This document shows positions 3,877 to 21,533 of a DNA stretch of 43,389 nt, in pieces. A program made the position numbers and the translations under genes. Under the pieces are notes generated by a model that saw nothing but the letters and a program-made list of their open reading frames with translations, was not told the DNA's origin and did not search any database. Within the stretch, counting starts at the first letter, position 1. The number at the start of each line of letters is the position of its first letter. Origin of the DNA: a virus (lineage: Duplodnaviria > Heunggongvirae > Uroviricota > Caudoviricetes); the IMG/VR virus record IMGVR_UViG_2778261064_000026, positions 1 to 43,389 of that record; one strand, given 5' to 3'.

Positions 3877-3904
3877 TTGCATTCTCTATCTGGATGTGTA
3901 CAAT
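3877..3904 (+). promoter_or_regulatory. sigma70-like promoter (TTGCAT, 16-nt spacer, TACAAT) for the 3971 gene
   Basis: hexamers read directly from sequence. Confidence 0.3.
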
Positions 3905-3970
3905 ACGCGACCCTAAATCCCAAACCAACCATATTGAGGTTATGCCTATAAGTTAAAAAGTGAGGTCTAT

Positions 3971-4540
3971 ATGATTCCAGTAATGGCTAAAGATATTGTT
4001 TTTACTCCTAAATCCTCCCGTGCTGCAACTCCATCGGCATTAGAACAACGCATTCTGACTCACATCAAAGAGAAGGACTTACCGTTAGTCTTTCATGGCT
4101 TTCTGGGTGAGTTTAAAGGGCTTCATTCAAGAATTGCTCTTACATGTACCCGATGCGGCAATAGAGCCGACAAATCAGCTACCAACCTGCTTAATGAAGG
4201 TAAACGCTGTGCATGTCTCAAAAGTGATTACTTTCAATATAAAGCGGGTGTGCCTTATCTCTATGTAATGAAATCAGGGGATATTGGTAAATTTGGTGTA
4301 ACAAAGTCAATCATCAAGCGACGTGTTAATCTGGGTGTACGCAATCCCGGTCATAACTTTGATATTGTCTTTGCTGGTGAAATGCCATCAATGAAACATG
4401 CTTTAGCCACTGAAAGAGCAATAAAGAGATTACTGGATGTGGGTATAGGCGGGATTGAATACGGCAAAACTGAAACATTCCACTACTGCAATAAATCACT
4501 AAACAATATAAAGAATATTGCAAGTGTGGAGTGGAACTAA
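3971..4540 (+). CDS. T5orf172/GIY-YIG-like domain protein, 189 aa, N-terminal Cys cluster
   Basis: YLYVMKSGDIGKFGVTKS motif; RBS gtgagg; stop overlaps helicase start (TAATG). Confidence 0.4.
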   Translation: MIPVMAKDIVFTPKSSRAATPSALEQRILTHIKEKDLPLVFHGFLGEFKGLHSRIALTCTRCGNRADKSATNLLNEGKRCACLKSDYFQYKAGVPYLYVMKSGDIGKFGVTKSIIKRRVNLGVRNPGHNFDIVFAGEMPSMKHALATERAIKRLLDVGIGGIEYGKTETFHYCNKSLNNIKNIASVEWN

Positions 4541-6030
4541 TGCAAGATATTAAAATTCATTTTCAAGATTACAGTTTCGTTAAGGTTGATTGCTCTCCTT
4601 CTATCGGAATGGAATTAAGAGATTATTTCTCGTTTGAGGTTGAAGGGGCTAGGTTTAGCCCCCGCTACAAGTATTCCGGCTGGGATGGACGAATAAGACT
4701 GTTTACGCATGAAAATATCCTACCAATTGGACTATTAAAAACGTTGGGTGTCTTCGTTAAAAATATGGGCTATTCAGTCTGGATTGACCCGCGATTGCTT
4801 GAGAAGGAAGATGTAACCAAAGACGCGATTAATGAATGGATTGATTCCCTAGAAGTGTATTCCGGTTCCAATAAAATCAATCCTTACTGGTATCAAAGGG
4901 AGGCAGTCTTTCAGGGTATCCATAATCGCCGTAGAATGCTGGTTCTTCCTACCAGTGCCGGAAAGTCATTGATTGCTTGTATGCTGTCTCGTTGGTACTT
5001 AGAGAACTACACCGGAAAGATTCTAATCATTGTCCCGACTACATCGCTGGTGGTTCAAATGAGGGATGATTTTGTTGATTATCGGTTATTCCCTTATGAA
5101 GCAATCCATACAATGATGAGTGGTAGCGGGAAACATCCGGGAGACAGGTTAATCACGGTTAGTACCTGGCAATCAGCTTGCAAGATGCCTCCTGAATGGT
5201 TCAAACAATATGGAATGTTGATAGTTGATGAATCGCATAAGGCTAGTGCCAAAAATATTACCAATATCATTAACGGAATGAATCATTGCCAGTTTAAGAT
5301 CGGTATGACTGGTTCCCCGAAAGAATCAAAGTGCCATTTAATGCAATACGTCGGTATGTTCGGTGATATTTCTAAGATCGTGAGTATTGACCGCCTGATG
5401 GAAGAAGGGCAGGTGACAAAACTGAAAATTAACTGTCTTTTCCTTCGTTATACCGATGAGGAATGTAGCGCGGTTAAGGGGCGAGAATATGCGGAAGAGA
5501 TCAAGTACATCACTTCGCACGGGAGACGAAATAAGTTTGTGTGTAATTTGGCGCTAAAACTCGCTAAGAAGAACGAAAACGTATTTCTGATGTTCCGTAA
5601 CACTAAACACGGAAAACTTATGTATGACGCGTTACAGAAGGTACATGATAAGGTTTATTACATTGATGGTGGAGTTAAGACAGAAGAACGTGATGAATTT
5701 AAGAAAATGGCGGAGGGTGACACCGGGATCATTTGTGTTGCGTCTTATGGTGTGTTCTCTACTGGTGTTTCAATTAAGAACTTGCACCATGTCATTTTCG
5801 GTCATCCGGTGAAAGAATCAACTATCGTTCGTCAGAGTATTGGCCGTGCATTGCGTAAACATGGTTCTAAGGATATTGCGACCGTCTGGGATCTTATCGA
5901 TCATCTGTGTATATTCGGTCGTAACGGAAAAGTCAAGCATAAAAATTATGCGGTAAAACATGCACTTGAGAGAATCCGCTATTATCTAACCGACAAGTTC
6001 AGCTATGCAACTAAAACAATTGCTATATAA
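4540..6030 (+). CDS. SF2 DNA helicase, UvsW-like (recombination/repair helicase), 496 aa from ATG 4540
   Basis: Walker A LPTSAGKS, DExH box IVDESHKAS, motif VI QSIGRALRKHG; N-terminal domain and motif order resemble my recollection of T4 UvsW. Confidence 0.7.
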   Translation: MQDIKIHFQDYSFVKVDCSPSIGMELRDYFSFEVEGARFSPRYKYSGWDGRIRLFTHENILPIGLLKTLGVFVKNMGYSVWIDPRLLEKEDVTKDAINEWIDSLEVYSGSNKINPYWYQREAVFQGIHNRRRMLVLPTSAGKSLIACMLSRWYLENYTGKILIIVPTTSLVVQMRDDFVDYRLFPYEAIHTMMSGSGKHPGDRLITVSTWQSACKMPPEWFKQYGMLIVDESHKASAKNITNIINGMNHCQFKIGMTGSPKESKCHLMQYVGMFGDISKIVSIDRLMEEGQVTKLKINCLFLRYTDEECSAVKGREYAEEIKYITSHGRRNKFVCNLALKLAKKNENVFLMFRNTKHGKLMYDALQKVHDKVYYIDGGVKTEERDEFKKMAEGDTGIICVASYGVFSTGVSIKNLHHVIFGHPVKESTIVRQSIGRALRKHGSKDIATVWDLIDHLCIFGRNGKVKHKNYAVKHALERIRYYLTDKFSYATKTIAI

Positions 6031-6031
6031 C

Positions 6032-6063
6032 AAAAAAGCGCCCACTAGAGGCGCTTTAATTTT
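6032..6063. terminator. bidirectional terminator separating rightward block from leftward late operon
   Basis: aaagcgcccactagaggcgcttt hairpin flanked by A-run and T-run. Confidence 0.6.
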
Positions 6064-6415
6064 ATCCATTCCACCGTGATTTTTTTGATCTGGAATCAAT
6101 ATGCGTAAAGGTTTTATATTTGCCTAAGCCGTATTGAGTAGGATATTTCCCATCAAGATAAGCATGGACAATATCAGGGGAGACACCCTTGACCACAATG
6201 TCAGCCGCACGACCTCGAACGTGATAGCTGTTGGTTGCACCGCCTACATTCTTGTTATGAGTCGGACAACGGTTCCCACTGTTAATAATTACTGGTTTCC
6301 CGAAGTGTTCGCGTACATCCTCAAGAATCACCAGTAATTCAGCGTCGATTGTATCATAATCACATTTTCCGCATTTACATTTAAATTCCTTGCGAGAAAA
6401 ATGCTTACTTAACAT
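6062..6415 (-). CDS. peptidase M15-family cell-wall hydrolase (putative endolysin), 117 aa
   Basis: SGNRCPTHNKNVGGATNSYHVRGRAADIV and HID motifs typical of zinc D-Ala-D-Ala carboxypeptidase-like phage lysins. Confidence 0.6.
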   Translation of the reverse strand: MLSKHFSRKEFKCKCGKCDYDTIDAELLVILEDVREHFGKPVIINSGNRCPTHNKNVGGATNSYHVRGRAADIVVKGVSPDIVHAYLDGKYPTQYGLGKYKTFTHIDSRSKKSRWNG

Positions 6416-8065: not shown

Positions 8066-11000
8066 TTAAGAAACAGAAATACCAGTAGCGGCTTTCTTAG
8101 TTACCATTACCGTTAGATCGCTGATCCATGTGCTGGGAGTCCAGTTGTTGATTGCGCTTGAACTTACTTCAAAAGTTAGCGTAACTGGTCCGTGTCCGGC
8201 TGGCATATCAATAACAGCACTATACAATCCAGTCTGTCTACCATATGCACGGTTATATAATTCAGCACCGTTCTTGCGAACAATCAAGCGACAGTTATCA
8301 TAGTAAGTATTGTTATTCGAGCCTTCACGCGCATTAAGACCACCAAAGCTAATAGCCGGAACGATAATCTGACGATCAAACGGGTGATCATCTTCAATTC
8401 GAACAGTGATTGTACCTTGCGGATAACCGGGATAGCCCAATGATGGGTTTTCGTCCCAATGTGGGAATCGACGACCAATAGCTTTCACGAAGTCACCACG
8501 CACCTGATTAGCATCAAGCATACCCAAAATGCGGCAACTTGAATTAATCGTTACGTTGTTCATTTCGCCGGAATCAGCCACCAAATGACCACGAATATTA
8601 GCGTGTCTAAAATGACAAGTGCCATCTTTGCCGATATACCATCCATCGTTACCATTCCAGTTATAAGACTGGATATAGTTACCAATTTTAGCATTATCGA
8701 TAGAGCCATCAATGATATGACCTGTTCCGATCTGTGCGTGTTGGATGTGAGCGCCGTTAATCTGGGCTGTGCCGATTTTAGCCGTGGTGATACTAGCATC
8801 ACTAATCTGGGCTGTGCCAATTGCAGCATTACGAATCATCGCATTATCGAGATAAACTTTGTTATCTTCGATACCAAACGGGCATACTTCCGATCCGTTC
8901 TGTGGAGCTACCGCGATTTTATCAGCCGTAAAGATGATTCTCGTCGGTTGCGCCGGATCGTTGGTTGCGCTCATATGAATACCAGCCACGCGACCATCTG
9001 CATTAACCGCCAGATTATATTTGCTGTTAATGGTTCCCTTCAAAGCATCGATTTTTACATCTGCTTCCTGATTCACACCAGCAATCTTGCCATCCATTTC
9101 TACCCGAACTTGGTCGATCTTACTTGCGCTTGCTGCCTCACTGGTAGCAATTGCTTGTTTCAGGGTAGTAGCAGATGCGCTAACTTCATTGGTGATATCG
9201 CCTTTCAGTTCAGCTTTAACCTGATCAATCTTAGTGGAGCTAGCTTGCTCGCTGGTAGCAATCAGACTCTTGAGAGTATCGGCTGAGGCTTGGACCGTCT
9301 GCCCTGTCTCGGTAGTAATCTGTTTATGCATTGCATCAATCTTAGCATCGGCATTAGCGCCAGCTTGAGCAATAGCATCCGCGATGGTTTCATCTAAGCG
9401 ATCTTGTAAACCAATCAGGTCTTCAAGTGCTTCTTTGTCCTGATCGTCCCAGCTAATGGTAGATTTCATTTGCATGAAATACGGTTCAGACCAAACAGCA
9501 TCATCCATACCGAAAATATCGTAGTGAGCACCACGGATATAATAATCACCGTCAGCCAAATCAAAGGAAGTATGACTAACGCTATTGGTAGTCACTGCCC
9601 TTGCATCTGAGAAAGTGTTATCGGTTGCATACTGGATGATTGACCCTGCATAGTCATGTTCTACGTCATCCGCCCAGCTAACAAACGCAGTATTAAAGCC
9701 ACCACGCGCACTAAAACCTTTCATCGGCTTATGTTGTTGGTTGATAGCCACTAAACGCGCTGGGGCGCTCTCTGAGTTGTTATAGCCCTTAACGGATACT
9801 TCTACCGTCAGTTCACGGGAAAGGCCGTTAAACTGGTTCATATCAAGCGTATAGGTCCATGATTCAGGATCGCGGGTACGGTACTGAATAGACTTACCAG
9901 CCTTGTTAGTTACCTTGATAATGTAGGCTTCAAACAGGTCACTAAACTTGTTAGTTTCACCGTTGATAACCACATCTAAGGCTTGCTGATTTTCCCATTC
10001 GATAATCAGATCATTGCCTTCAAAAGTTCCTGGTGTGCTACCCTGATTTTTGATGCGGATCACTGGCGTAGGCAGTTCATAGGTAACTTCTGGATTCTGG
10101 TTAACCAGTTCCACCCATTCGGAACGAGCAATAATACCGAAAGCACAAACGCGGTAATCGTAGGAACGATCTTTTGCCAGTGCATTGATATTGAAAATTT
10201 GCTGTGAAGTCTGTCCCAGCTTAATCCAGTTAGGTGATCCACTCACACGATAATCAATCTGGAAACCGTAGCGGTTAAAATCTTCCGGTGCGTCCCATGT
10301 CAAAGTTACGTTTTTACCGTGGATTGTCTCACCAGTTGCCTTAATTCTGAAATTAGTCGGTTTCTGTACTGTCATTGAATCCGGTAAACCGGTAGGTCTA
10401 TTGTCTGGAGTCGCCGCATAGTTCAGGTCAGTATAAACCTGAGAATTATATTCTGTGGCGGTGATAGTCATCATCCCAGCAATACCAGAATCAATCGAGC
10501 GATCAATTGCAGTAATGCGCCAAAGTGAATTATTCAGTTTCAATTCATCATAGGTAACGCTAATAACATCCCACACTTCGGCAGTGAATGCGTCAGTAGT
10601 CATGAAGCTGATAACCTGAGTGATACGAGATTTATTTCGCTCAATGCTCGCGAGTTTATCAATCTGGGCTTTAGACTTAACAAAACGATATTCAATATCT
10701 TTAGCGATAATTCGACCATCTTGACGAATAGTAGCATCGTTTTCAGCATCAGCCGGATAACGTAGCATTTGCTCGGAATAGTCAATTGATGGTTCTTGAT
10801 ACATCGCGTTAATGGTATTGAAATAACCGTTAGTGCCACCTGTTTTCAGTGATACTTTACCCATCATAATATTGTCTTCATTGAAGGTATGCTTAACAAT
10901 ATCAGGAGCATCCAGTTTCAGGGTAATTCTTCCGAAGGATTCGAACATTACCCCGCCGAAAGTCTGCATAAGGCTAGTCAAGTTCTCTTTAAAGCTGGCG

Positions 11001-11842
11001 TTCGGATCACATGCACCGTTTGAATGCAAATCCATCTGGCGTACTTGCTTACGTACTTTCAGGAATGAATCAACGTTAATGTTTTCAATTGGTACTGATA
11101 GACCATATTTTTCATTTGTTAGGTAATGGAAAATCTGGTCCACGCCGTTAGTGCTTGCCTCAATAGCATTGGTTTCGAGGTTACGGATTTTTAAGCCCAT
11201 AACATCGACCGCTACCTGGCTATTAGGCTGGAGAATATCAACACCAGCAGCCAAAGATTTGTCATCACGACGTAAAACAATACACATGGTCGCAATGCCG
11301 TTACCCTGATACCGATCATCCCAATCTGCGCCCAAATGATGTTTAGCTAAATCCAATGCGGTGTTAGGATTTTTACCCGTGCGAAACTCGACTTCTAACA
11401 CTTTGCGGTATTCTTCTTTAATGTTTCCTTTATCGAGAACACCATCACGAATTGTCATATTCTGGCTAATGAGAACATTTTTATTATCGATGTGCAGTGC
11501 TTTAAAGTGATCGATCTCACCTTCTGAAATAGCAAAAATTTGTACCAGTTTGTTGTTTTCACGCTGTGAAATTGCTTTGTAAACGCAGATTGCACCCGTG
11601 CGGGTAGTACCGAAAAGGACGGGTAATACTGTCTTAGGATCGTTTGATGTTCCTAGTGTCACCGCATTATCTGGGCTTTGTACTTTAGGTGTTTTTGGTG
11701 CGCCTACAGTGGAAGCGATCAAGGTCATTGCACCAGCAGCCATACCGATAGCGACTGCGGTCATAACAGAAAATGTTGCAGCAGCAGCCATCCCAGCAGA
11801 CGCACCAGCAATAACCGCGCCTACCAATACTTCAAATCCCAT
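8066..11842 (-). CDS. central tail fiber / tip attachment protein J-like, 1258 aa, with lambda-J-like C-terminal receptor-binding domain
   Basis: C-terminal segments TVRIEDDHPFDRQIIVP, VIDMPAGHGPVTLTF and VMVTKKAATGISVS match my recollection of lambda gpJ C-terminus; size and position after K-like gene. Confidence 0.8.
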   Translation of the reverse strand: MGFEVLVGAVIAGASAGMAAAATFSVMTAVAIGMAAGAMTLIASTVGAPKTPKVQSPDNAVTLGTSNDPKTVLPVLFGTTRTGAICVYKAISQRENNKLVQIFAISEGEIDHFKALHIDNKNVLISQNMTIRDGVLDKGNIKEEYRKVLEVEFRTGKNPNTALDLAKHHLGADWDDRYQGNGIATMCIVLRRDDKSLAAGVDILQPNSQVAVDVMGLKIRNLETNAIEASTNGVDQIFHYLTNEKYGLSVPIENINVDSFLKVRKQVRQMDLHSNGACDPNASFKENLTSLMQTFGGVMFESFGRITLKLDAPDIVKHTFNEDNIMMGKVSLKTGGTNGYFNTINAMYQEPSIDYSEQMLRYPADAENDATIRQDGRIIAKDIEYRFVKSKAQIDKLASIERNKSRITQVISFMTTDAFTAEVWDVISVTYDELKLNNSLWRITAIDRSIDSGIAGMMTITATEYNSQVYTDLNYAATPDNRPTGLPDSMTVQKPTNFRIKATGETIHGKNVTLTWDAPEDFNRYGFQIDYRVSGSPNWIKLGQTSQQIFNINALAKDRSYDYRVCAFGIIARSEWVELVNQNPEVTYELPTPVIRIKNQGSTPGTFEGNDLIIEWENQQALDVVINGETNKFSDLFEAYIIKVTNKAGKSIQYRTRDPESWTYTLDMNQFNGLSRELTVEVSVKGYNNSESAPARLVAINQQHKPMKGFSARGGFNTAFVSWADDVEHDYAGSIIQYATDNTFSDARAVTTNSVSHTSFDLADGDYYIRGAHYDIFGMDDAVWSEPYFMQMKSTISWDDQDKEALEDLIGLQDRLDETIADAIAQAGANADAKIDAMHKQITTETGQTVQASADTLKSLIATSEQASSTKIDQVKAELKGDITNEVSASATTLKQAIATSEAASASKIDQVRVEMDGKIAGVNQEADVKIDALKGTINSKYNLAVNADGRVAGIHMSATNDPAQPTRIIFTADKIAVAPQNGSEVCPFGIEDNKVYLDNAMIRNAAIGTAQISDASITTAKIGTAQINGAHIQHAQIGTGHIIDGSIDNAKIGNYIQSYNWNGNDGWYIGKDGTCHFRHANIRGHLVADSGEMNNVTINSSCRILGMLDANQVRGDFVKAIGRRFPHWDENPSLGYPGYPQGTITVRIEDDHPFDRQIIVPAISFGGLNAREGSNNNTYYDNCRLIVRKNGAELYNRAYGRQTGLYSAVIDMPAGHGPVTLTFEVSSSAINNWTPSTWISDLTVMVTKKAATGISVS

Positions 11843-12276
11843 TATTCACCCCCGAATCTATAAACTTGTTCATATTCAATGTCTGAAACAGGAATGGTCA
11901 TCCAGATACCATCTTCTTCAACGAGGCCATAACCGGAATAATGAGGAACTACGGAATAATATTTGCGGTTCCCTAATTTGTGGGCTGTGACCAGTAAGTC
12001 GCCGTCCTGTAAATCATCAGTGACTAATTTGAAATGTTTCTTAATTGGTTGAAGGATATTTGAATACCCGCTTAATTCTTTGCAGATTTTCAAGCCTTCT
12101 TCTTTAGTTGAATATTTTTTATAAAGAGAATTATATAGGTCAGTACCAGCGAGAATATCGATGATCTTACATGCAATTAGATTGCAATCATTCTCGCCTT
12201 GAACGAACTCCTGACCTATTAAAGAATTGATGTAATCAGTGATAAGCCTAGTTTTTAGCATGTTGAATACCTCCAT
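11842..12276 (-). CDS. tail assembly protein K-like (NlpC/P60-type Cys-His peptidase fold), 144 aa
   Basis: GENDCNLIAC Cys motif and downstream His; TAATG overlap with J-like start. Confidence 0.5.
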   Translation of the reverse strand: MEVFNMLKTRLITDYINSLIGQEFVQGENDCNLIACKIIDILAGTDLYNSLYKKYSTKEEGLKICKELSGYSNILQPIKKHFKLVTDDLQDGDLLVTAHKLGNRKYYSVVPHYSGYGLVEEDGIWMTIPVSDIEYEQVYRFGGE

Positions 12277-12307
12277 GCTGTTATTTACTAGGCTTAGGGA
12301 GAAGGGA

Positions 12308-13078
12308 TTATTTCTTGAAGTCTTCGTACATTCTACGAAGGTTGTATTTTGGATGGCCTAAGCTAACCATGATTTGACTCAATTTAACCGCGCCGGGTTT
12401 ACCGTTTTCAATCCACACGCGCCGGATTTCATCGTAATGCTGCCAACAGCCTTGACCTTTAGCAATACGTATAGAATGTGTATATTTCTTGGTAGAGCTT
12501 TCTGGTCGCTTGCGCCCTAGATGTGCTTTTCTAATCTTTTCGCGTGTTTCTTCTGATACAGGTTTACCATAACGGGGGTTATTCTCTCCACGAGTAGCAG
12601 CCGATAATTTAGCTAATATTTCTGGGTTTGTTACTTTTTTGCCTCTCATTGCACTAGGTTTACCATAGCGATGGTTCTTTTCACCCATTCGAGATGCCGA
12701 CATTTTAGCTCTAGATTCCGGTGTATGTTTTCTTCCGTAAAAAGGATGATTTTCACCACCATCAAAACCACCGACACCACCAGGAGCTATATTAAGACAT
12801 ACACCACGCCCCCATTTTTCGCGTGCTGCCTCCACTAACAGGATTTCACATTCAAACGCTTCCTCGGCAGTATCAAACAATTTTGAACGAACAACTTCAA
12901 ATTCATATATCGGGGTTTCTGATTCTTTATTTTTACGCTTCATCATTTTAATAACTTTACCCGATCCCACATATCCATCGTCTAGATTTGTGGTTGTTCT
13001 TTTTCCGACGTAATGATAGATTTTACCAGAGCGATTAGATTTAATAGTGGTGTGATAAACGTAATGGAATTTTTGCAT
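12308..13078 (-). CDS. GIY-YIG homing endonuclease with NUMOD3-type DNA-binding repeats, 256 aa
   Basis: N-terminal YHYVYHTT...GKIYHYVGKR...GYVGSG GIY-YIG motif; three repeats HPFYGRKHTPESRAK / NHRYGKPSAMRGKK / NNPRYGKPVSEETREKIRKAH. Confidence 0.75.
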   Translation of the reverse strand: MQKFHYVYHTTIKSNRSGKIYHYVGKRTTTNLDDGYVGSGKVIKMMKRKNKESETPIYEFEVVRSKLFDTAEEAFECEILLVEAAREKWGRGVCLNIAPGGVGGFDGGENHPFYGRKHTPESRAKMSASRMGEKNHRYGKPSAMRGKKVTNPEILAKLSAATRGENNPRYGKPVSEETREKIRKAHLGRKRPESSTKKYTHSIRIAKGQGCWQHYDEIRRVWIENGKPGAVKLSQIMVSLGHPKYNLRRMYEDFKK

Positions 13079-13152
13079 ATAGGAAAGCCCTCAAAAATAA
13101 AGAATCTCTCCTATATTTATTGAGGGCTTTAGTGTGCCATTTAGTTTCAGTC

Positions 13153-13806
13153 TTATTTTTTAGACGAGTGCCAGCGGCTTTCGCTATTCCACTTCCCGGC
13201 ACGAGAGAAGAATAGATCATTCTCGTTTCCAACATAGGATCGGTGGATACCATCGGAGGCATGACTTCGAGCGTTTTTATCTAGAACTTCCCAGATACTA
13301 TTAAGCTGAAATTCTGATTCGTTTTTACACTCATCATATTCATGTTCGATGTTAATCCCGATGGAATCGACTACCCCACGGAAAACAGGGTAAGTGGTTT
13401 CAACCTTGCCCGTGTTAGGGTTCAGGAACACCATTTCGATTTTCACATCTGATTTATCGAATTGCTTGTTTCGAATCAGGGTAATGTATTCCTCGCGAAC
13501 GTTAGAAACGGTTACGTTAATCCCGTTGTTGTTGATCTCCTTCTCTTCGGTATTCGATGAGATTTGAAGAAAATCACCCGTTGCGAGATACGTAAATCCG
13601 TTATAGTCCAAATCGAAATACCCATCTGTAAGCCGTAGAACGTCCCCTGACGCTGTTATCACTTCGATAATGTGAAACATCGATCCAGTGGAAAAAAGCT
13701 GCGGTAGCGTCAATCTAGACACGTTCTGACCTGTCTGGTCGTTGTAGACCTCGATGAAGTCCAGATTAGTACATAGTTGGCTGAATGATTCCTGAATAGT
13801 TGCCAT
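13153..13806 (-). CDS. minor tail protein (L-like position), about 217 aa from MATIQ
   Basis: position between tape measure and K/J genes; start chosen at ATG overlapping upstream stop; track ORF extends to 13860. Confidence 0.4.
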   Translation of the reverse strand: MATIQESFSQLCTNLDFIEVYNDQTGQNVSRLTLPQLFSTGSMFHIIEVITASGDVLRLTDGYFDLDYNGFTYLATGDFLQISSNTEEKEINNNGINVTVSNVREEYITLIRNKQFDKSDVKIEMVFLNPNTGKVETTYPVFRGVVDSIGINIEHEYDECKNESEFQLNSIWEVLDKNARSHASDGIHRSYVGNENDLFFSRAGKWNSESRWHSSKK

Positions 13807-14402
13807 TATACATTCTCCACTAATTCGAATTTCATCTTGCCAATCTGGGCGATCTTCCAATCGATATTTTCAGTTTTGAGAACAAATTCACCTTCTACGT
13901 TCTGATACTTGATCACCTCACCCGCCAGGACGTTCTGACGCAAGTTAGGGAAGAGTTTCATTTCACCGCCTGATTTCACGTCTTCGGTGATCGTGTAGAT
14001 TTTCTTGTGGTTCTCAAACTGTACAATCGTTCCCGCTTTCAGTGTTCCGGTGAAGTTGGAGATTCTCACCTTACGCCCACCGCGAGCAGTACCAGCAGCA
14101 GCCGTAACCATCTGGCGTACATCACCTGTATATTTTGAAAAGTAAGACAGTGGCACACTAAAAGGACGACCAAAAAGGTGACGTGCTACAAATTCTTTTA
14201 CTTCGTTAATATCCTGAGCCATGAAATTAGCTGTAAATTCTGCTTCATAAAAATGAATACCAGTAAAGCGACGCTGGAACTTACCAGAAATAGATTGCGC
14301 CTTGAAGAAAGGTTGTTTTGATTTAAGAGTAAAATCTGTGATTTTAATATTTTTGGATTTGAACATAGAAAAAGCCCCCATAGTTTTATGATTATTTATC
14401 AC
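13806..14402 (-). CDS. minor tail protein (M-like/distal tail position), 198 aa or shorter; start uncertain
   Basis: immediately downstream of tape measure; hairpin 14372-14414 overlaps 5' end so true start may be ATG at about 14381 or 14366. Confidence 0.4.
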   Translation of the reverse strand: MINNHKTMGAFSMFKSKNIKITDFTLKSKQPFFKAQSISGKFQRRFTGIHFYEAEFTANFMAQDINEVKEFVARHLFGRPFSVPLSYFSKYTGDVRQMVTAAAGTARGGRKVRISNFTGTLKAGTIVQFENHKKIYTITEDVKSGGEMKLFPNLRQNVLAGEVIKYQNVEGEFVLKTENIDWKIAQIGKMKFELVENV

Positions 14403-14417: not shown

Positions 14418-16772
14418 TTACATCTTACGGCGCTGTGCGTCTTCTACCGCCTGAGCAACTAACTTAGCATGACGTTTGATAGCATCCATGACCATCTTGT
14501 CTGAGCTATTAACGTTGCCGTTAATGTTCAAAGGTGCGTTAACTTCAATCGGCTGAGAGTTACCACCGCCTGATTTTTGAGCAGATAAGAAGTCTTTCAA
14601 ATCACCGTTAGTACGCTGATCAACTACTCGTTCACCCTTATCAAGCAGCCATGTACCCTCACGCGGGATGTTATCGATACCATCATGAGCCATACCGCTA
14701 ACGTTAGTAGACTTGATGTTTGCGATGTTCCCCATGTTCTGAGAAACAGCCAATGCAGCAGCCGCGATTTTTTGACCTGTGGTTACGTTGGTCGGATCGT
14801 TCCATGCATCGGTAGCAGCCGTCCACATGTTCACCGTCGCTTGTCCAATAGAGAATGCTTTATGAGCAGTGAAAGCCATCTGCATAGCTTTAGTGTTTTC
14901 CTGCCCGAAGAGAGTCATTGCAGCAGCAAAACCGCCATACATATCATCAGCTATTGACTGACGAGCATCAGCATATTTCTTCTCAATTGCAGCCATTCGT
15001 TTTTGATGGTTTTCATTGAGTTTTTCTAATTCTTCCATCCGTTTAGCCGGATCGGTGATCCCATCAATCTTGATTTTACCGGTCTTATAATCTTGTTCCG
15101 CTTCCGATTTCTCTTTATCGATTGCATTAAATTTAGCAAACGGATCATTTGGATCTTGATAGTCTAAGCTATTGGTCAACTGATTGGTTTTAAAACCATC
15201 CATTCCATGCAAAGAATCTTCAATCTGTGAATAACTTTGCTCGGTATCATTCACACGACGCATATATTCTTCGTAGGAGATAGCTTTACCATCAAGTAAC
15301 CGTTTATGGCTTTCTAACTCGTTGTCCCTGATTTGTTGCAAAACTGTTAAGGCATTCAAAGCATCAACCGGATCAGCACCCAGCATCATTTTATAGATGT
15401 TTTCTGCGTTCTGGTCTAACAGTTGCTGACGTTTAGCGGCTGCGTCTTGCTGTGAGATTAAGCCCAGATCTAAAGCAGTGTCCAAATCTTTCAAGCTGGC
15501 TTCTAACTGCTTGTTTTGAGAAGCAATAGACGCGGCTGTCTGTCCTTGCAATTTAACATCAAGAGCATTCAGTCGCTTGATTGCATCCTCGCGTGCTTTC
15601 TGTGCTTTTTCTGCGGCTTCCTTAGCCTTTTTAGCTGCCTCTTCCGCTTTCTTCTTGGCTTCTTCTTGTTCTTTTTTTGTTGGACCAGTGACGCCTCCAC
15701 CTTGACCCGTTGGGGTAAATCCAGTATCCGATTTATTTCCAGTGATAGTAATTACCGGATCGCCGTTTTTATCACGGGTAACTCCTTCACTATCCACCCA
15801 ACGATCAGGATAATTTGGTTTATTGTTGAAGCTGGCTTGTCCACCTGCTAGACCAGTAGAACTATAACCATGCTTGTTAATAAAACCACCGTTAGCCATA
15901 GCCATATTCTGGCGAGCTTTTTCAAACCTTTCATTAAACGTCTTTAATGCGTTGAATAAAGCGGTCTTTTCCCAATCTTTATCAAACCAGTTGTATAACT
16001 TGTTCATCCCTTCAACAACTGGATTTAGCGCATTTGCTGCCATACCCTTTAAGTTATCGGTAAGGGTATCCATATTTTTAGAGAATTTATTATATTCTTC
16101 GGCTGTATCATTGGTGATTTTAACAGTTTGCTGATTAATGGCGTTTACAGCTTCCTGATAAGATCCGTATTTCTGCAATTCATCAGCCATATGACTTGAA
16201 TCACTGGCTAACGATTCCATCATAAACTTAACATCAGCGATAGACGCACCAGCCTTGCGCATATCATAGAAGACCTTGATTGCCGCTTTCATCCCGCCTT
16301 GTGGATCGTTCATAAACTCGGCATAATCTTTAATCTTCAAACCTACACTTTCTAGGTCGTCTTCAATACCGCCACCGTTACGCCATGCATCAGCCAGTTT
16401 ATCTAAGGTGTCTTTGTTAATATCACCAAATTTCTCAACGGTTAAGCCAGTGCCAGAGAATTGCTTCTCTAATTTCTGGAGTGTTTCGACGGTTAAACCA
16501 GTTGCTTTTGAAACTTCGCTGTATTCCTTTACATAATCACCGATGGCATTTGCAGCAGAGACAGCACCAGCAGCCAGACCAACAAAACCACCAGCAGCCA
16601 AAGCAAGCGATCCACCAGTTCCGCGAAGGGTTCCACTTAAACTAGATAAACCACCAGACAAATCAAGATTCATTGCCCTTTCTGAAAGGTTATCAAGCAT
16701 GTCAATCGCTTGGTTGGTACTTCTCCTTAGACCGTCGTTATTCCCTTCTATTGTTACTATATGTTTTGTCAT
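14418..16772 (-). CDS. tail tape measure protein, 784 aa
   Basis: size, position after chaperone pair, long coiled-coil/low-complexity stretch KKEQEEAKKKAEEAAKKAKEAAEKAQKARE. Confidence 0.8.
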   Translation of the reverse strand: MTKHIVTIEGNNDGLRRSTNQAIDMLDNLSERAMNLDLSGGLSSLSGTLRGTGGSLALAAGGFVGLAAGAVSAANAIGDYVKEYSEVSKATGLTVETLQKLEKQFSGTGLTVEKFGDINKDTLDKLADAWRNGGGIEDDLESVGLKIKDYAEFMNDPQGGMKAAIKVFYDMRKAGASIADVKFMMESLASDSSHMADELQKYGSYQEAVNAINQQTVKITNDTAEEYNKFSKNMDTLTDNLKGMAANALNPVVEGMNKLYNWFDKDWEKTALFNALKTFNERFEKARQNMAMANGGFINKHGYSSTGLAGGQASFNNKPNYPDRWVDSEGVTRDKNGDPVITITGNKSDTGFTPTGQGGGVTGPTKKEQEEAKKKAEEAAKKAKEAAEKAQKAREDAIKRLNALDVKLQGQTAASIASQNKQLEASLKDLDTALDLGLISQQDAAAKRQQLLDQNAENIYKMMLGADPVDALNALTVLQQIRDNELESHKRLLDGKAISYEEYMRRVNDTEQSYSQIEDSLHGMDGFKTNQLTNSLDYQDPNDPFAKFNAIDKEKSEAEQDYKTGKIKIDGITDPAKRMEELEKLNENHQKRMAAIEKKYADARQSIADDMYGGFAAAMTLFGQENTKAMQMAFTAHKAFSIGQATVNMWTAATDAWNDPTNVTTGQKIAAAALAVSQNMGNIANIKSTNVSGMAHDGIDNIPREGTWLLDKGERVVDQRTNGDLKDFLSAQKSGGGNSQPIEVNAPLNINGNVNSSDKMVMDAIKRHAKLVAQAVEDAQRRKM

Positions 16773-17545: not shown

Positions 17546-18016
17546 TTAGACTTTCTGGAAAACAGCTTGTTTAACCGGAGCACCATCTACTACAAAAGTG
17601 AAGGTACGACCGACTACAGCATCTTCGCCGCCAGTCATGGTAGTTTTAGACAGGAAGCCGTTATAAGCGATGTGTACACCAGATTTTTTGGTAGCGTCGA
17701 TGTAGTAAGCAATTTTAAGCTGTACGCGCTTACCGTCTTCGGTTGCTTTAATCAGTTTTTCGTGTACTTCGTTACCCGGCATGTAGTTGATCGAAAGTTC
17801 GATATCCGGTACAGACATACGACCAACCAGCTTACGGTTATACGGACCACCGAAGTTAGGAACATCGACAGTAGAACGTTCTACACCAGTTTCCGGGAAA
17901 GCCGCACATTCTGGAATTTCCAGATAGGTTTCAGCGTCAAGATCAACGTTAGCTACATCTTCTTGCAGAAACAGACCAACGAGGCCACCAGAGAAAATAT
18001 CAAATTTAGTAGTCAT
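17546..18016 (-). CDS. putative major tail (tube) protein, 156 aa
   Basis: immediately upstream of chaperone pair; host-optimal codon usage; followed by strong terminator. Confidence 0.5.
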   Translation of the reverse strand: MTTKFDIFSGGLVGLFLQEDVANVDLDAETYLEIPECAAFPETGVERSTVDVPNFGGPYNRKLVGRMSVPDIELSINYMPGNEVHEKLIKATEDGKRVQLKIAYYIDATKKSGVHIAYNGFLSKTTMTGGEDAVVGRTFTFVVDGAPVKQAVFQKV

Positions 18017-18104: not shown

Positions 18105-21100
18105 TCATTTACAGGATTTAATAGCCGCAAGTTCAGCTTTAACAGCTTTCAACTCTTCGTTCATCGCATCATACTTAGTCGTTAATTCCTGAAAGGCTTT
18201 CACGAAAAGAGCATTGATACTAGAAACAGAAATAGTTTTAATTTCTCCTGGATTTTCGGTATCTCCATCGCTGCAAACGTGCACAGCTTCCGGCATAACT
18301 TTTTCCACATCTTGAGCAATGACACCTAATTCGCGTCCAACCACTGTATCATCAGAAAGTGATTTAACTTTATCGTAGGAATATACGGTTAAGCTGTTTA
18401 ATTTATCCAGCGCACCTTCTTCCAATTCTTCCTTGTTGATCTTAAGACGTTCATCAGATCGAATATGCACATCGTTAAAGCTACCGTTACCCGGCGTGTA
18501 AAAGAACCCATCGTGATGGAACTCAAATACAGCTTGAGGGTGTCCGTTATCAGGTGAGTTTTCCGCAGATCCAACACGAATAATTGCTTGTCCCCAATTG
18601 TTAGGGATACGACGCATACCAAAATCGACGGCAGTTGTATACCCTTGATTGGTGATTAAACTTCTTGCTTTAACAATCGGATAATAACAGTCTTGTCCAA
18701 CATAGCCATGATCGACGAATATTGGCGCTTCCACTCGCCACTGATTACCCCAATCACCTGGTTGACTAGCGGTCCAACGTTCACCATGAACATATAATCG
18801 AGCGTTATTAACATGAACCATTTCGACGCCTTTTGGACTTAATGCAATATCCCCAGCGTTCGTAAGATTTATCGCGGCATTAGTAGCATAGCTATAGAAC
18901 GCTAATCCATTATCACCACCGCCTTTACCAATATACCAGTTGTTGTTGTCAGCACACGTACCCAACAAATATACAGACGAATCACCACTTTCGGCATTCA
19001 TGATAATTGCATCAGATCCACGATTAATTTTCATTTTCCCGAAGAAGGTGTTTTTAATGGTATTATCCCATAGACGTTCAAATTCGGCTAAAAATCCTTT
19101 TGAGTCACGAAGACTTAAAACGTTATTTCGACCTGTATTGCTTGCTCCCCAATGGACGAGTTCCATATAGTCCATAGATTGACGAGAACCAGCTTTAAAG
19201 AAAAGATTGTCCTCAAGACGAGTGCTACCATCAATTCCAAGATGCAAACACCGAGCGGTTGCAGTACCACCTAAATACAATCCACCGTCCGCAAAATCAT
19301 AGCTGAATGGTCTGCGATTATTCCAACTACCAAAAGAATCTTTTAAATCGGTAGTAAGAATATGGAAGCTAGAACCATCATTGCGTAACATCAAACCATA
19401 GTTACCGCCTTTGACAGCCAAACGAGCATTTTCAGATAATGCAACTTCGCTATTCATTACAATTTTCTGGCCTTTACCACCAGTAATATGTAATTCACCA
19501 TCTTCAATCAGGTTTATCGAGTTTTGACCGTTATCGTTCCACCAAATAAAATCTTTGGTTGTTCCATCACCAAAACCAAACCAGCCATTACGAACATCTT
19601 GACCAGTGCGATAATCCATAAAATTAAAATGGCTTGATTCGTTTGGTCCTCGACGAATATCAATACCAGAATTTCCAGTAACACCGCCATCCAATGTTAA
19701 TTTCTTGACATGTAACCCGGATGTTACTGTCAGCAATAATTCCTGATTTGTATCTTCGTATCCAGTAGCAAGACGATATGCGTTATCATCAACTGTCTCA
19801 TGCCAGATTGTAGCTGGTGCACAACTACGGAAGCGACGCAACATCTTTTTAGCATTTGTCGGTTGTTCGTTTAAATGCTCAATGTCGTATTGGCCTTGAT
19901 GGTTTCCAGCAAAATTTAATGTCCCACGGTTGCTAAAGTTATTAAACGATGAAATGTTAAGAGCATCAAAAATTTCATCTGCAACAGGTTTTTCACCGCC
20001 CAGGTATTCAGGAGTATCCAACAGGTTTAAAGAAACACCACCGGAAGAAACTTGATATTCTGCTAAAACAAATCCTGTATGTGCACCATAGTAAGCGTAA
20101 AGATCGTAATTATCACCATCGGTAGGAATTGCACAAAAATGTTGTTCGTAATACCAAATAGTATAATACGCATTGAATACAACACCTTTCGGGCTATTGT
20201 TGCCGCAACGGATCACCAGTTCAATAACATTGGCTTGTCCATTCTGTCCGACGTTATAACCGTTACCACCCACTAAACGGATCTTAGCCGTACGACCGTG
20301 TTGTTGTGGCATTGTCAAAGTGCCTAGTTTAAACCAACCGCCCTCGATCCCAAAATTAAGCGTCTTCTGGAAAAGTCGGTCAATTTCTGCTTTCGAATAT
20401 GCGCCAATTTCAGCCGGAGTAGGTTTATCACCTTCGTGATACATGCGGTGAGAATATGCTAAATGACCCAATTCATCATAGCCGTATGTTCTTACCGTAG
20501 CATGTGGATTAGACCCATAAGTGAACTCAAAACCACGAGCATGATTAACACCGGATGGATGGGGAACATGCAACGCTAAAGCAATATGACCAGCTAGATC
20601 ATTCATGCGGAATGCACCAAAGTAATCAAGATTACGAGCATTTGGATCATCAAAATAGTTTGCGGTCTTAGACAGCAAATAACCATCAGTGTAAGTGTTT
20701 ACGTGTTTTTTGATGTACTTACCGTCACTCGATCCGTCGGCTGCATCAATACGGCTTTCTAAGCGTGCCAATTCAGAATCAGTGTAAGACTTGTTATTGT
20801 CAACTTTGCTATGAATTGCTGAATTTTTGGCTTCAACATCACGGGTTAATGCTGCGACGTTATCCGCTGCCTCTTGCTTGTTTGCTGCAATAACACTATT
20901 AAGGCTATCGCGCGTAGCGGTTAGCTGATTTTCCGCATAAATTTTATTTGCTGCGATAGTGCGATCAGTCTCGGCCTTAATCAAATCAACTTTGTCATTG
21001 ATAGCTTTATCATTGCTTGCGATGGTTGCATCAGTACGGGATTTAATATCATCAACTTTTTTATTGATGCGGGTGTCCAGTTCCTGAGTTGCTACAGCAG

Positions 21101-21533
21101 CCGCATTTTTATTAGCGGTGATGGTATCGGACAATTCAGATTTAACACCAGCAAGATCGGAAGCAGCTTTATTTTTATTGGCTTCGATTGTCGCGTCGGT
21201 TTCGCGTTTAATTGTATCAACTTTATTGTTAATTTCTGCGTGATTGTTGGCAATAGTAGAATCGGTAGTTCGTTTAATTTCGTCTACTTTAGCGTGAATA
21301 TTGCGGTCGTTTACTGCAATTGTGCTATCTAATTCTTGTTTGTTAGCATCAACTTTAGATTCTAATGCCGCATGAGTTTCAGGAGAAACAGAGATTTGAA
21401 CTACTTCATGATCTCGGTCTTTGGTAAAAATAACATGGTCTTTAAGGTTGATTGCTACCTCACCGACCTGTAATTGTTCCGGCGTTGGCTTTTTGCCAGA
21501 AACATTAGTTCGTTTAAATTGGATTGATTGCAT
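18105..21533 (-). CDS. side tail fiber protein with C-terminal intramolecular chaperone auto-processing domain (peptidase S74-like), 1142 aa
   Basis: N-terminal coiled-coil repeats (VDEIKRTTDSTIA / VDTIKRETDATIEA / VDDIKSRTDATIA / VDLIKAETDRTIA); C-terminal HIRSDERLK plus about 117 aa typical of self-cleaving chaperone domains. Confidence 0.8.
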   Translation of the reverse strand: MQSIQFKRTNVSGKKPTPEQLQVGEVAINLKDHVIFTKDRDHEVVQISVSPETHAALESKVDANKQELDSTIAVNDRNIHAKVDEIKRTTDSTIANNHAEINNKVDTIKRETDATIEANKNKAASDLAGVKSELSDTITANKNAAAVATQELDTRINKKVDDIKSRTDATIASNDKAINDKVDLIKAETDRTIAANKIYAENQLTATRDSLNSVIAANKQEAADNVAALTRDVEAKNSAIHSKVDNNKSYTDSELARLESRIDAADGSSDGKYIKKHVNTYTDGYLLSKTANYFDDPNARNLDYFGAFRMNDLAGHIALALHVPHPSGVNHARGFEFTYGSNPHATVRTYGYDELGHLAYSHRMYHEGDKPTPAEIGAYSKAEIDRLFQKTLNFGIEGGWFKLGTLTMPQQHGRTAKIRLVGGNGYNVGQNGQANVIELVIRCGNNSPKGVVFNAYYTIWYYEQHFCAIPTDGDNYDLYAYYGAHTGFVLAEYQVSSGGVSLNLLDTPEYLGGEKPVADEIFDALNISSFNNFSNRGTLNFAGNHQGQYDIEHLNEQPTNAKKMLRRFRSCAPATIWHETVDDNAYRLATGYEDTNQELLLTVTSGLHVKKLTLDGGVTGNSGIDIRRGPNESSHFNFMDYRTGQDVRNGWFGFGDGTTKDFIWWNDNGQNSINLIEDGELHITGGKGQKIVMNSEVALSENARLAVKGGNYGLMLRNDGSSFHILTTDLKDSFGSWNNRRPFSYDFADGGLYLGGTATARCLHLGIDGSTRLEDNLFFKAGSRQSMDYMELVHWGASNTGRNNVLSLRDSKGFLAEFERLWDNTIKNTFFGKMKINRGSDAIIMNAESGDSSVYLLGTCADNNNWYIGKGGGDNGLAFYSYATNAAINLTNAGDIALSPKGVEMVHVNNARLYVHGERWTASQPGDWGNQWRVEAPIFVDHGYVGQDCYYPIVKARSLITNQGYTTAVDFGMRRIPNNWGQAIIRVGSAENSPDNGHPQAVFEFHHDGFFYTPGNGSFNDVHIRSDERLKINKEELEEGALDKLNSLTVYSYDKVKSLSDDTVVGRELGVIAQDVEKVMPEAVHVCSDGDTENPGEIKTISVSSINALFVKAFQELTTKYDAMNEELKAVKAELAAIKSCK

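What the first reader, a model, noticed from the sequence alone, without database searches (positions are those of the whole stretch)
12308..13152. Free-standing GIY-YIG/NUMOD3 homing endonuclease inserted between minor tail genes
A GIY-YIG endonuclease with three NUMOD3-like repeats interrupts the otherwise syntenic tail order (tape measure, M-like, L-like, K-like, J-like). It is flanked upstream by a long hairpin (13081-13127) that includes its RBS region. This is the classic arrangement of a mobile homing endonuclease gene, predicted to cleave the tail-gene junction of related phages lacking it.
Basis: partly seen in the sequence, partly recalled or inferred. Interest (0 to 1): 0.5.

Follow-up and report, generated by a model that had tools for sequence, protein, structure and literature searches.

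The report
SegE-like homing endonuclease in prophage tail operon
An 845-bp selfish-gene cassette encoding a T4 SegE-like GIY-YIG/NUMOD3 homing endonuclease sits between two tail genes of an E. coli prophage, where about nine in ten close relatives have an uninterrupted junction; it is a clean new example of a well-known kind of element.

Summary

The whole segment 12308-13152 is a presence/absence polymorphism. 22 of 26 near-identical IMG/VR prophage contigs have an uninterrupted junction, as do 50 of 56 complete E. coli genomes that carry this tail module. The occupied copies carry the cassette at exactly the same point.

All eight alleles examined are intact and under purifying selection (dN/dS 0.03-0.3). 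Their DNA-binding modules have been shuffled behind a nearly constant nuclease domain.

The upstream hairpin (13084-13130, 3 nt off the stated coordinates) is stable (z about -5) and kept by compensatory changes. It buries the GAGGG ribosome-binding site, as in T4 I-TevI, segB and mobE.

Cleavage and homing are inferred, not shown.

This is a new member of a known kind, of moderate interest.

The parts
12308..13152 (-). Whole 845-bp endonuclease cassette (5' leader with hairpin, plus ORF). Present here and absent from most close relatives.
   Evidence: The downstream DUF6950 gene is shifted by exactly 845 bp (848 bp in a variant allele) in occupied versus empty loci. The cassette is found in 6 of 56 module-bearing complete E. 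coli genomes.
12308..13078 (-). Endonuclease ORF, 256 aa, ATG at 13078, TAA at 12308-12310.
   Evidence: It is intact in all 8 alleles, with dN/dS 0.04-0.32.
12767..13078 (-). SegE-type GIY-YIG nuclease domain (residues 1-104). The 'GIY' motif is Y6-V7-Y8 and the 'YIG' motif is Y23-V24-G25; E78 and N96 follow.
12509..12757 (-). Three NUMOD3 repeats (residues ~108-190), a DNA-binding linker.
   Evidence: Pfam PF07460, E=1.4e-20, 3 stretches. A homologue profile matches the I-TevI DNA-binding domain 1I3J, E=0.0046. A 55-nt internal direct repeat lies at 12560-12614 and 12656-12710.
12311..12502 (-). C-terminal helical domain (residues 193-256), probably a helix-turn-helix DNA-binding module. It exists in at least two unrelated allelic types.
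13084..13130 (-). Conserved 47-nt hairpin in the 5' leader. It sequesters GAGGG (13088-13092) and AGGAG (13108-13112) and contains AATAAATA (13114-13121).
   Evidence: I3. Compensatory G-C to A-U change and paired C/G insertion across alleles.
13153..13161 (-). AAAAAATAA: the last two Lys codons and stop of the upstream tail gene. It forms an imperfect 9-bp direct repeat with the end of the endonuclease ORF.
12308..12316 (-). AAGAAATAA: the last two codons and stop of the endonuclease. It is identical to the end of the upstream tail gene in empty sites, so the cassette reuses the original stop codon and leaves the spacer to the next gene untouched.
13160..13204 (-). Patch at the 3' end of the upstream tail gene (-52 to -8 from the insertion point) that is hypervariable, mostly synonymously, among cassette-free relatives. 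It is a candidate cleavage or co-conversion zone.
   Evidence: pi=0.247 against a mean of 0.052; 13 haplotypes in 22 sequences. 16 of 26 differences between the two copies in the double lysogen BS74R-D lie in the last 36 nt.
13153..13806 (-).
11842..12276 (-). PGAP places the start at the second ATG (12261).

Best explanation
The segment is a free-standing homing endonuclease gene of the T4 Seg type, specifically SegE-like. It has invaded the junction between two minor tail genes of a temperate E. coli/Salmonella siphophage.

The protein has the I-TevI/Seg layout: an N-terminal GIY-YIG nuclease, a flexible linker of three NUMOD3 repeats, and a C-terminal helical DNA-binding domain.

Inferred mechanism: when a cassette-bearing and a cassette-free genome share a cell (co-infection, superinfection of a lysogen, or induction of a polylysogen), the enzyme binds the intact junction and makes a double-strand break at or a few tens of bp upstream of it. 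Recombinational repair from the occupied copy then copies the cassette, with short flanking co-conversion tracts.

The cassette is built to do little harm. It supplies its own copy of the last two codons and stop of the upstream gene. It ends on the original stop codon, so the spacer and ribosome-binding site of the next tail gene are unchanged.

No sigma-70-type promoter was detected in the leader, so it appears to ride the late tail transcript. A conserved hairpin that buries its ribosome-binding site probably keeps translation low.

Shown here: domain identity, the precise presence/absence polymorphism, intactness and purifying selection, hairpin conservation, and module shuffling. Inferred: nuclease activity, target position, homing.
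For: Identity of the protein:
- NUMOD3 x3 and PHROG homing-endonuclease families.
- T4 SegE 39% identity over 104 aa, E=1e-13. SegE is listed as an active GIY-YIG enzyme in PMC2988022 Table 1.
- A homologue profile hits 1LN0 at E=3.5e-11.
- Y8, Y23, G25, E78 and N96 are invariant.
- No group I intron or other Rfam family is found around it.

Mobility signature:
- Same-site presence/absence: 4 occupied versus 22 empty near-identical contigs, and 6 of 56 module-bearing complete E. coli genomes.
- Occupied genomes fall at three or more separate places in the flanking-gene tree.
- The window's right flank is identical to a cassette-free genome (L013) from +200 to +1250, and L008's to another (L004), while the proximal 200 nt on the left are shared among occupied genomes.
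- In the IMG/VR set of 5 occupied versus 22 empty sequences, the only fixed differences across 11.7 kb of flanks are at -13 and -7.
- Cassette-free genomes show a diversity peak immediately upstream of the site.

Functionality: 8 of 8 alleles are intact, with dN/dS 0.03-0.3, lowest in the GIY-YIG domain.

Same site across lineages: alleles as low as 54% identical, in diverged Salmonella-type prophages, sit at the same junction. A 35% homologue is a free-standing gene in a T4-like contig, just upstream of a type II topoisomerase (GyrB-like) gene.

Regulation: the hairpin has z about -5 to -6 in four variants with compensatory changes. The same device is described for I-TevI/II/III, segB and mobE (PMC2988022 section 12).
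Against: - Neither Pfam GIY-YIG (PF01541) nor SegE_GIY-YIG (PF19835) matches this sequence, even at E<=10.
- A profile of the close family alone does not reach I-TevI.
- N-domain-only hhalign is modest (E=2e-5, probability 53%), and Foldseek against the PDB is not significant.
- The canonical catalytic Arg is not alignable.
- The 9-bp imperfect direct repeats flanking the cassette would equally allow precise deletion, so the polarity of each individual event is not determined.
- One E. coli chromosome (BS74R-D) stably holds both an occupied and an empty copy, so no conversion occurs in that lysogen.
- The -13 difference is not universal, because BS74R-D has C there.
- There is no biochemical evidence.
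Confidence: 0.8

Rival explanations
1. The gene is a domesticated prophage defence or exclusion gene. The nuclease is kept because it cuts incoming competitor phages (related siphophages or T-even phages), not because it homes.
For: - It sits in a prophage and is under strong purifying selection.
- The closest phage homologues are T-even seg genes.
- The invariant leader 19-mer contains AATAAATA and resembles the T4 segE upstream region with its TATAAATA: 15 of 17 positions, reached by 44 of 5000 shuffles.
- A double lysogen tolerates an empty site, so homing is not occurring in that state.
Against: - PADLOC matches only its 'HEase' (homing endonuclease) models.
- There is no sequence similarity to PD-T4-3.
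- No sigma-70 promoter is predicted in the leader, the ribosome-binding site is sequestered, and the gene lies inside the late tail operon, which should be silent in a lysogen.
- Precise same-site occupancy with a reused stop codon is typical of homing endonuclease genes, not of morons.
- Marker exclusion is in any case a by-product of homing.
Confidence: 0.12
2. The protein is an inactive relic that now acts only as a DNA-binding protein, as its RefSeq name 'NUMOD3 domain-containing DNA-binding protein' implies. It could be, for example, a regulator of tail-gene expression.
For: - Pfam does not recognise the GIY-YIG domain.
- The canonical Arg is not alignable.
- I-TevI is known to double as a transcriptional autorepressor (PMC2988022).
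Against: - The nuclease domain is the most conserved part (98-99% aa identity between alleles whose DNA-binding halves are saturated; dN/dS 0.03-0.19).
- Y8, Y23, E78 and N96 are retained.
- The same K-[H/R]-[S/T]-T..L.DGY.GSGK motif occurs in the active enzyme T4 SegE.
- About 90% of relatives do without the gene, so it has no essential regulatory role.
Confidence: 0.05
3. The gene is ancestral and has been lost repeatedly by deletion between the 9-bp repeats. On this view it is not a mobile insertion.
For: - Imperfect direct repeats AA(A/G)AAATAA flank the 845 bp, and deletion between them would give exactly the empty site.
- Occupied copies occur in a diverged Salmonella-type clade as well.
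Against: - The empty state dominates and is found in every outgroup sampled: L027/L029 at 83% nt, L032-L034 at 57%, DCP80 at 52%.
- Occupied genomes are scattered among empty ones, with flanks identical to different empty genomes.
- The protein family is otherwise found as free-standing endonucleases in T4-like phages.
- Loss is in any case part of the normal life cycle of a homing endonuclease gene, so this is not an exclusive alternative.
Confidence: 0.03

Closest known systems
Phage T4 SegE (free-standing GIY-YIG homing endonuclease between inh and uvsW)
   Same: The N-terminal nuclease domain is 39% identical over 104 aa (E=1e-13), including the motif Y.VY...Y[IV]GK[HR][ST]T..L.DGY.GSGK...E...N..PGG.GG. 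Both are free-standing genes between conserved genes. Both have a leader with a TATAAATA-like element in the 5' arm of a predicted stem-loop; the T4 segE stem-loop itself is weak (-10.7 kcal/mol, z -1.8).
   Different: SegE (205 aa) has no NUMOD3 repeats, and its C-terminal half is essentially unrelated (E=0.017). SegE lives in a lytic T-even phage next to recombination genes. This one is in a temperate siphophage tail operon, carried as a prophage.
I-TevI (T4 td intron endonuclease; PDB 1LN0/1MK0 and 1I3J)
   Different: I-TevI is encoded in an intron, has a zinc finger in its linker, and carries the canonical R27. Here there is no intron, no alignable Arg, and three tandem NUMOD3 units.
Other T-even seg genes and hairpin-regulated segB and mobE
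   Same: About 29-33% identity over the full length to 'site-specific intron-like DNA endonucleases' of T6, RB32, IME08 and others. They are also promoter-less cassettes riding host transcripts, with translational repression by a hairpin.
   Different: The host phage type and insertion context differ. Free-standing T4 enzymes usually cut far from their gene. Here the only occupied-versus-empty differences lie within 13 nt of the insertion point, which suggests an intron-endonuclease-like proximal target.
Domain-shuffling homing endonuclease genes near essential genes (Barth, Dunham & Seed 2023, PMC10448857)
   Same: Alleles combine a near-identical nuclease domain with unrelated DNA-binding modules. 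The gene sits next to essential structural genes, at a boundary of elevated divergence.
   Different: That study concerns T5orf172 and HNH genes in ICP1 and lytic phages. This case is a GIY-YIG/NUMOD3 gene with alternative alleles all at a single site in prophages.

Membership tests
GIY-YIG homing endonucleases (Seg / I-TevI type) | GIY-YIG catalytic fold (three-stranded sheet with flanking helices) | tested here: met
GIY-YIG homing endonucleases (Seg / I-TevI type) | Direct sequence homology to an experimentally active member | tested here: met
   BLASTP against T4 SegE gives 39% identity over 104 aa, E=1e-13. SegE is listed as active in PMC2988022 Table 1.
GIY-YIG homing endonucleases (Seg / I-TevI type) | Curated HMM (Pfam PF01541 GIY-YIG or PF19835 SegE_GIY-YIG) above the gathering score | tested here: not met
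   No hit on the protein or its isolated N-domain at E<=10. TIGR01453 scores 35.1 bits against a cutoff of 56, and only over the NUMOD3 region. Intermediate homologues P0026 and P0028 do pass.
GIY-YIG homing endonucleases (Seg / I-TevI type) | Catalytic Tyr (GIY), Tyr (YIG), Glu and Asn | tested here: met
   Y8, Y23, G25, E78 and N96 are invariant in a 23-sequence alignment that includes Pfam-positive GIY-YIG proteins. They align with I-TevI Y6, Y17, G19, E75 and N90 in the profile alignment.
GIY-YIG homing endonucleases (Seg / I-TevI type) | Catalytic Arg on helix 1 (I-TevI R27) | tested here: inconclusive
   The column that holds Arg in canonical members is N31/L32 here. The family has K26 invariant and R/H at position 27. 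T4 SegE has the same K-H-S-T..L.DGY arrangement.
GIY-YIG homing endonucleases (Seg / I-TevI type) | Modular C-terminal DNA-binding region (NUMOD-type) | tested here: met
GIY-YIG homing endonucleases (Seg / I-TevI type) | Sporadic presence at one precise site among otherwise collinear relatives | tested here: met
GIY-YIG homing endonucleases (Seg / I-TevI type) | Site-specific double-strand cleavage of the cassette-free allele, and super-Mendelian inheritance | not testable with these tools
   Needs cleavage assays and mixed infections.
Free-standing (as opposed to intron- or intein-encoded) endonuclease | Own ORF between genes, with no group I intron and no in-frame fusion | tested here: met
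   Separate ORF with a 74-nt leader. The Rfam E-value scan of 11800-13900 finds no intron.
T4-type hairpin control of endonuclease translation (I-TevI, segB, mobE) | Stable stem-loop that sequesters the ribosome-binding site | tested here: met
   -21.7 to -25.1 kcal/mol, z -5 to -6, in four leader variants. GAGGG lies in the 3' arm. Compensatory G-C to A-U change and paired C/G insertion. Prediction only; not probed.
T4-type hairpin control of endonuclease translation (I-TevI, segB, mobE) | Late promoter inside the hairpin, so that late transcripts lack the 5' arm | tested here: inconclusive
   AATAAATA (13114-13121) matches 7 of 8 positions of TATAAATA and lies within an invariant 19-mer. It is similar to the T4 segE upstream region. 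The host phage is not T4-like, and WATAAATA occurs 12 times in the window against 6.6 expected.
Prophage GIY-YIG defence nucleases (PD-T4-3-like) | Match to a defence-system model or sequence | tested here: not met

The most novel reading that the evidence does not exclude
The hairpin carries a functional T-even-type late promoter: AATAAATA inside an invariant 19-mer that resembles the T4 segE promoter region. A superinfecting T-even phage would then transcribe the prophage gene from inside the stem, unmask its ribosome-binding site, and switch on the nuclease. The cassette would be a prophage-borne sensor-effector against T-even phages, or a way for the gene to jump between temperate and T-even gene pools, rather than only a homing element among sibling prophages.

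A weaker variant: the synonymous hypervariable patch next to the site, together with the swapped DNA-binding modules, records an ongoing arms race between target and endonuclease.
Probability: 0.06. Interest if true: 0.7.

Novelty: new member of a known kind. Interest (0 to 1): 0.35.

Why it matters
Free-standing GIY-YIG homing endonuclease genes are textbook in T-even phages. They are rarely documented in temperate coliphages, and RefSeq labels this one only as a 'NUMOD3 domain-containing DNA-binding protein'.

The case is useful because public genomes already provide a natural experiment. There are dozens of near-identical prophages with empty sites and a handful with occupied sites. Several alleles have swapped DNA-binding modules at one fixed insertion point. 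There is a synonymously hypervariable patch beside the site. One double lysogen carries both states.

That makes target recognition, co-conversion, regulation by the hairpin, and the invasion-loss cycle directly testable in E. coli K-12-compatible material. It also suggests correcting the annotation of this protein family.

Tried and rejected
- Megablast of the 3-kb region against 50,697 phage records found no match. Only one distant phage relative of the flanking gene exists there, DCP80 at 43.5% aa.
- I tested whether the leader contains a decayed duplicate of the upstream gene's 3' end, which could serve as an operator for autorepression as in I-TevI. Local alignments are not better than shuffles (83-1234 of 2000). 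Only the short motif A(A/G)TGGCA recurs. Rejected as unsupported.
- I tested the hairpin as an intrinsic terminator. The consensus scan does not call it. The Salmonella-type leaders do have UUUUCUU after the stem, so attenuation cannot be excluded.
- A 14-nt perfect complement links the hairpin's 3' arm to ORF nt +145-158. It is present only in E. coli-type alleles and is not significant in the other alleles. It was not adopted as part of the mechanism.
- Exact-pattern scans for the invariant 19-mer gave only the four known occupied viral contigs, two chance coding matches, and four unrelated genome hits in Paenibacillus and MAGs.
- The -13 'fixed' difference from the IMG/VR set is broken by the BS74R-D allele. 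Only -7, which lies inside the 9-bp repeat, is universal in the occupied copies examined.
- A correlation between C-terminal module type and junction sequence type was considered. The type-2 module occurs with both junction types, so there is no simple correlation.

Full report
**1. What is at the coordinates**

The - strand carries a 256-aa ORF from ATG 13078 to TAA 12308-12310. Upstream on the same strand lie:
- a tape measure gene (14418-16772; PHROG 13674, E=3.4e-70);
- a distal tail protein gene (13806-14402; PHROG 1302);
- a tail hub N-domain gene (13153-13806; Pfam Phage_phiJL001_Gp84_N; named DUF2163 in RefSeq).

Downstream lie a DUF6950 gene (11842-12276) and a 1258-aa J-like tip protein gene (8066-11842; Ig_GpJ_C E=2.1e-36). 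'M/L/K-like' is a positional analogy only. Base composition does not single out the segment.

**2. Identity of the protein**

Pfam finds NUMOD3 three times (E=1.4e-20). PHROGs 314 and 655, both 'homing endonuclease', match at 3.9e-32 and 5.9e-12.

Pfam does not find a GIY-YIG domain, even at E<=10 on the isolated N-terminal 108 residues. NCBIfam gives only a sub-threshold group I intron endonuclease hit over the repeats. phmmer against the PDB is empty. RefSeq calls the protein 'NUMOD3 domain-containing DNA-binding protein'.

The nuclease assignment was therefore tested independently.
- (a) BLASTP against T4 SegE, fetched from NC_000866, gives 39% identity over residues 4-105, E=1e-13. The two share the motif Y.VY...Y[IV]GK[HR][ST]T..L.DGY.GSGK...E...N..PGG.GG. 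SegE is listed as an active GIY-YIG homing endonuclease in Edgell et al. 2010 (PMC2988022 Table 1).
- (b) PADLOC's HEase model PDLC03676 matches residues 4-105 at 3.8e-12.
- (d) In an alignment with Pfam-positive GIY-YIG homologues the invariant columns are Y8, Y23, G25, E78 and N96. In the profile-to-I-TevI alignment these correspond to Y6, Y17, G19, E75 and N90.

Weaker or negative results are also on record. A profile of the close family alone does not reach I-TevI. N-domain-only hhalign gives E=2e-5 at 53% probability. Foldseek is not significant. The canonical Arg is not alignable, and the same holds for SegE.

**3. Presence/absence**

The window is an E. coli prophage. The insert is 100% identical to strain PK8568. 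There the prophage has a large serine recombinase and abuts a truncated hicB.

In IMG/VR, 36 loci encode relatives of the upstream gene. Among the near-identical ones (97-99% aa), 23 have the upstream stop followed by a 31-nt spacer and the DUF6950 gene. Four (L008, L031, L021, L022) carry an 845- or 848-bp insert at the same point. One of the 23 empty loci (L007) is a short contig, so the flank comparisons and the summary use 22.

The two junction types are:
- empty: ...TGGCATTCATCGAAGAAATAA|TCCCTTCTCCC...
- occupied: ...TGGCACTCGTCTAAAAAATAA[GACTGAAAC...GACTTCAAGAAATAA]TCCCTTCTCCC...

The cassette therefore brings its own AAA-AAA-TAA to finish the upstream gene. It ends on what was the original AAG-AAA-TAA. 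The spacer and ribosome-binding site of the next gene are unchanged.

In 5,426 complete E. coli genomes the flanking genes occur in 56. Fifty have an uninterrupted junction and six carry the cassette. In the four occupied genomes where I compared coordinates (14EC017, ETEC1703, FDAARGOS_946, BS74R-D) it directly abuts the upstream gene. More distant relatives also lack it: L027/L029, L032/L033, and phage DCP80, which has a 137-nt spacer.

**4. Signs of movement and of function**

In a neighbour-joining tree of the upstream gene, occupied genomes fall in three separate places within the E. coli clade. Each place has a different allele. A further diverged Salmonella-type clade was retrieved through the endonuclease itself.

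The window's right flank is identical to the cassette-free L013 from +200 to +1250, and L008's is identical to the cassette-free L004. On the left, the occupied genomes of one allele are each other's nearest neighbours only within about 200 nt. This fits short co-conversion tracts or recombination.

Across 6.65 kb of left flank and 5.1 kb of right flank, the only columns with no shared allele between 5 occupied and 22 empty sequences are -13 and -7. Both are synonymous. A later example (BS74R-D) breaks -13. Position -7 lies inside the 9-bp repeat.

Among empty genomes, nucleotide diversity peaks at -52 to -8 (pi 0.247 against a mean of 0.052). This is the second-highest 45-nt peak within about +/-1.2 kb. 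There are 13 haplotypes in 22 sequences, and they encode almost the same peptide, including multi-step synonymous swaps (CGT/AGG, AGC/TCA).

All eight alleles examined are intact. dN/dS is 0.04-0.32 overall and 0.03-0.19 in the nuclease domain. In three alleles (L021, L065 and the BS74R-D copy) the nuclease domain is 98-99% identical to the window's. In L021 and L065, where it was measured, the NUMOD3 and C-terminal parts are saturated at synonymous sites. DNA-binding modules have therefore been exchanged behind a constant nuclease domain, as described for other homing endonuclease genes (PMC10448857 section 23).

Alleles down to 54% identity sit at the same junction. A 35% homologue is a free-standing gene just upstream of a type II topoisomerase (GyrB-like) gene in a T4-like contig. 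Full-length 29-33% homologues are the 'site-specific intron-like endonucleases' of T-even phages.

**5. The hairpin**

The hairpin spans 13084-13130, with arms 13084-13097 and 13117-13130. It folds at -21.7 kcal/mol (z -5.0, 0 of 200 shuffles). With more flank the values are -23.5 kcal/mol and z -4.35.

Three other leader variants fold equally well or better (z -5 to -6). They differ by a G-C to A-U exchange at the stem base and by a paired C/G insertion. GAGGG, 9 nt before the ATG, lies in the 3' arm, and AGGAG lies near the apex.

This is the arrangement reviewed for I-TevI, I-TevII, I-TevIII, segB and mobE (PMC2988022 section 12). No sigma-70 promoter or consensus terminator is called there.

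The 19-mer CCTCAATAAATATAGGAGA in the 5' half is invariant in all eight leaders, although its pairing partner varies. It contains AATAAATA and resembles the T4 segE upstream sequence CCTCAGTATAAATATAG (15 of 17 positions; reached by 44 of 5000 shuffles). I treat this as an unexplained lead, not as evidence for a T4-type promoter.

**6. Mechanism and limits**

The best-supported reading is a Seg-type homing endonuclease gene that is active or was recently active. It probably recognises the intact junction. The sequence from -9 to +60 is nearly invariant in empty genomes. It probably cuts in or near the variable patch upstream, as I-TevI cuts 23-25 bp from its insertion site. I take that distance from memory; the review states only 'within 25 bps' (PMC2988022).

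This departs from the T4 rule that free-standing enzymes cut far from their gene. It is inference only.

The double lysogen BS74R-D keeps an occupied and an empty copy in one chromosome. That fits silence of a late-operon, hairpin-repressed gene during lysogeny, or resistance of that particular target haplotype.

The 9-bp flanking repeats mean that precise loss is as easy as gain.

**7. Novelty and score**

This is a new member of a known kind, namely free-standing GIY-YIG/NUMOD3 homing endonuclease genes. Three full-text searches turned up no paper describing this gene. Its public annotation is under-called.

Interest is moderate (0.35). The biology is expected. The natural allelic series, the fixed insertion point with swapped DNA-binding modules, the hypervariable target-side patch and the double lysogen make it a convenient test system.

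Noticed in passing
window 2642-6030: A three-gene cargo lies between the serine recombinase (889-2568) and the M15 endolysin (6062-6415). It comprises a 428-aa protein with a CapR-homology domain plus a MUG113/T5orf172-clan (GIY-YIG-related) domain, a 189-aa CapR-only protein, and a 499-aa UvsW_N/SF2 helicase. It is absent from the same position in the PK8568 prophage. CapR plus T5orf172 is the homing-endonuclease architecture described by Barth et al. 2023 (PMC10448857). This may be a second endonuclease-like or defence module.
   Followed up: partly
E. coli BS74R-D, NZ_CP063332.1: 35193-35966 (L068) and 441596-441753 (L067): This strain is a double lysogen with one cassette-bearing and one cassette-free copy of the tail module in the same chromosome. 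16 of the 26 differences between the two upstream genes lie in the last 36 nt.
   Followed up: yes
window 13160-13204 (equivalent region of cassette-free loci L002-L030): There is a sharp, mostly synonymous diversity peak at the 3' end of the upstream tail gene in cassette-free genomes (pi 0.247 against 0.052; 13 haplotypes in 22 sequences). It could be co-conversion scars or target-site evasion.
   Followed up: partly
window 13093-13106 and 12921-12934: A 14-nt perfect complement links the hairpin's inner 3' arm and codons 49-53 of the endonuclease ORF. It is present only in E. coli-type alleles and is not conserved in Salmonella-type alleles.
   Followed up: yes
window 13107-13125; T4 NC_000866 ~112,016-112,032 (L066 4017-4033): The invariant leader 19-mer CCTCAATAAATATAGGAGA resembles the T4 segE upstream region CCTCAGTATAAATATAG, which contains the T4 late-promoter consensus TATAAATA. 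The significance is modest (44 of 5000 shuffles).
   Followed up: partly
window 18105-21533 and 23297-25306: A 1142-aa fibre protein with a T4 Gp34 trimerisation domain and an S74 intramolecular chaperone is encoded upstream of the tail tube gene (17546-18016). The 669-aa capsid gene is a prohead protease (S78) fused to a major capsid protein.
   Followed up: no
window 37227-40736: A 2-hydroxyacid dehydrogenase, DUF4942, DUF5983 and a CbtA toxin are encoded here. This looks like a CP4-type island or host DNA, so the right-hand part of the window is probably outside this prophage.
   Followed up: no
L001 (phage DCP80, PQ671644.1) 8429-8989 and 9785-10201: The distal tail protein gene and the DUF6950-like gene are unannotated in the GenBank record. 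The 141-kb record is classified as Straboviridae/Gaprivervirus, yet it carries this siphophage-type tail module. The classification or the assembly may be unreliable.
   Followed up: no
L045 (ENA ERZ16268235 scaffold_11292) 1926-2729: The nearest homologue outside the prophage clade (P0023, 35% identity) shares the C-terminal domain. It lies directly upstream of a type II topoisomerase (GyrB-like) gene in a T4-like contig. In T4 the position beside the topoisomerase gene 39 is occupied by mobA (PMC2988022 Table 1).
   Followed up: no
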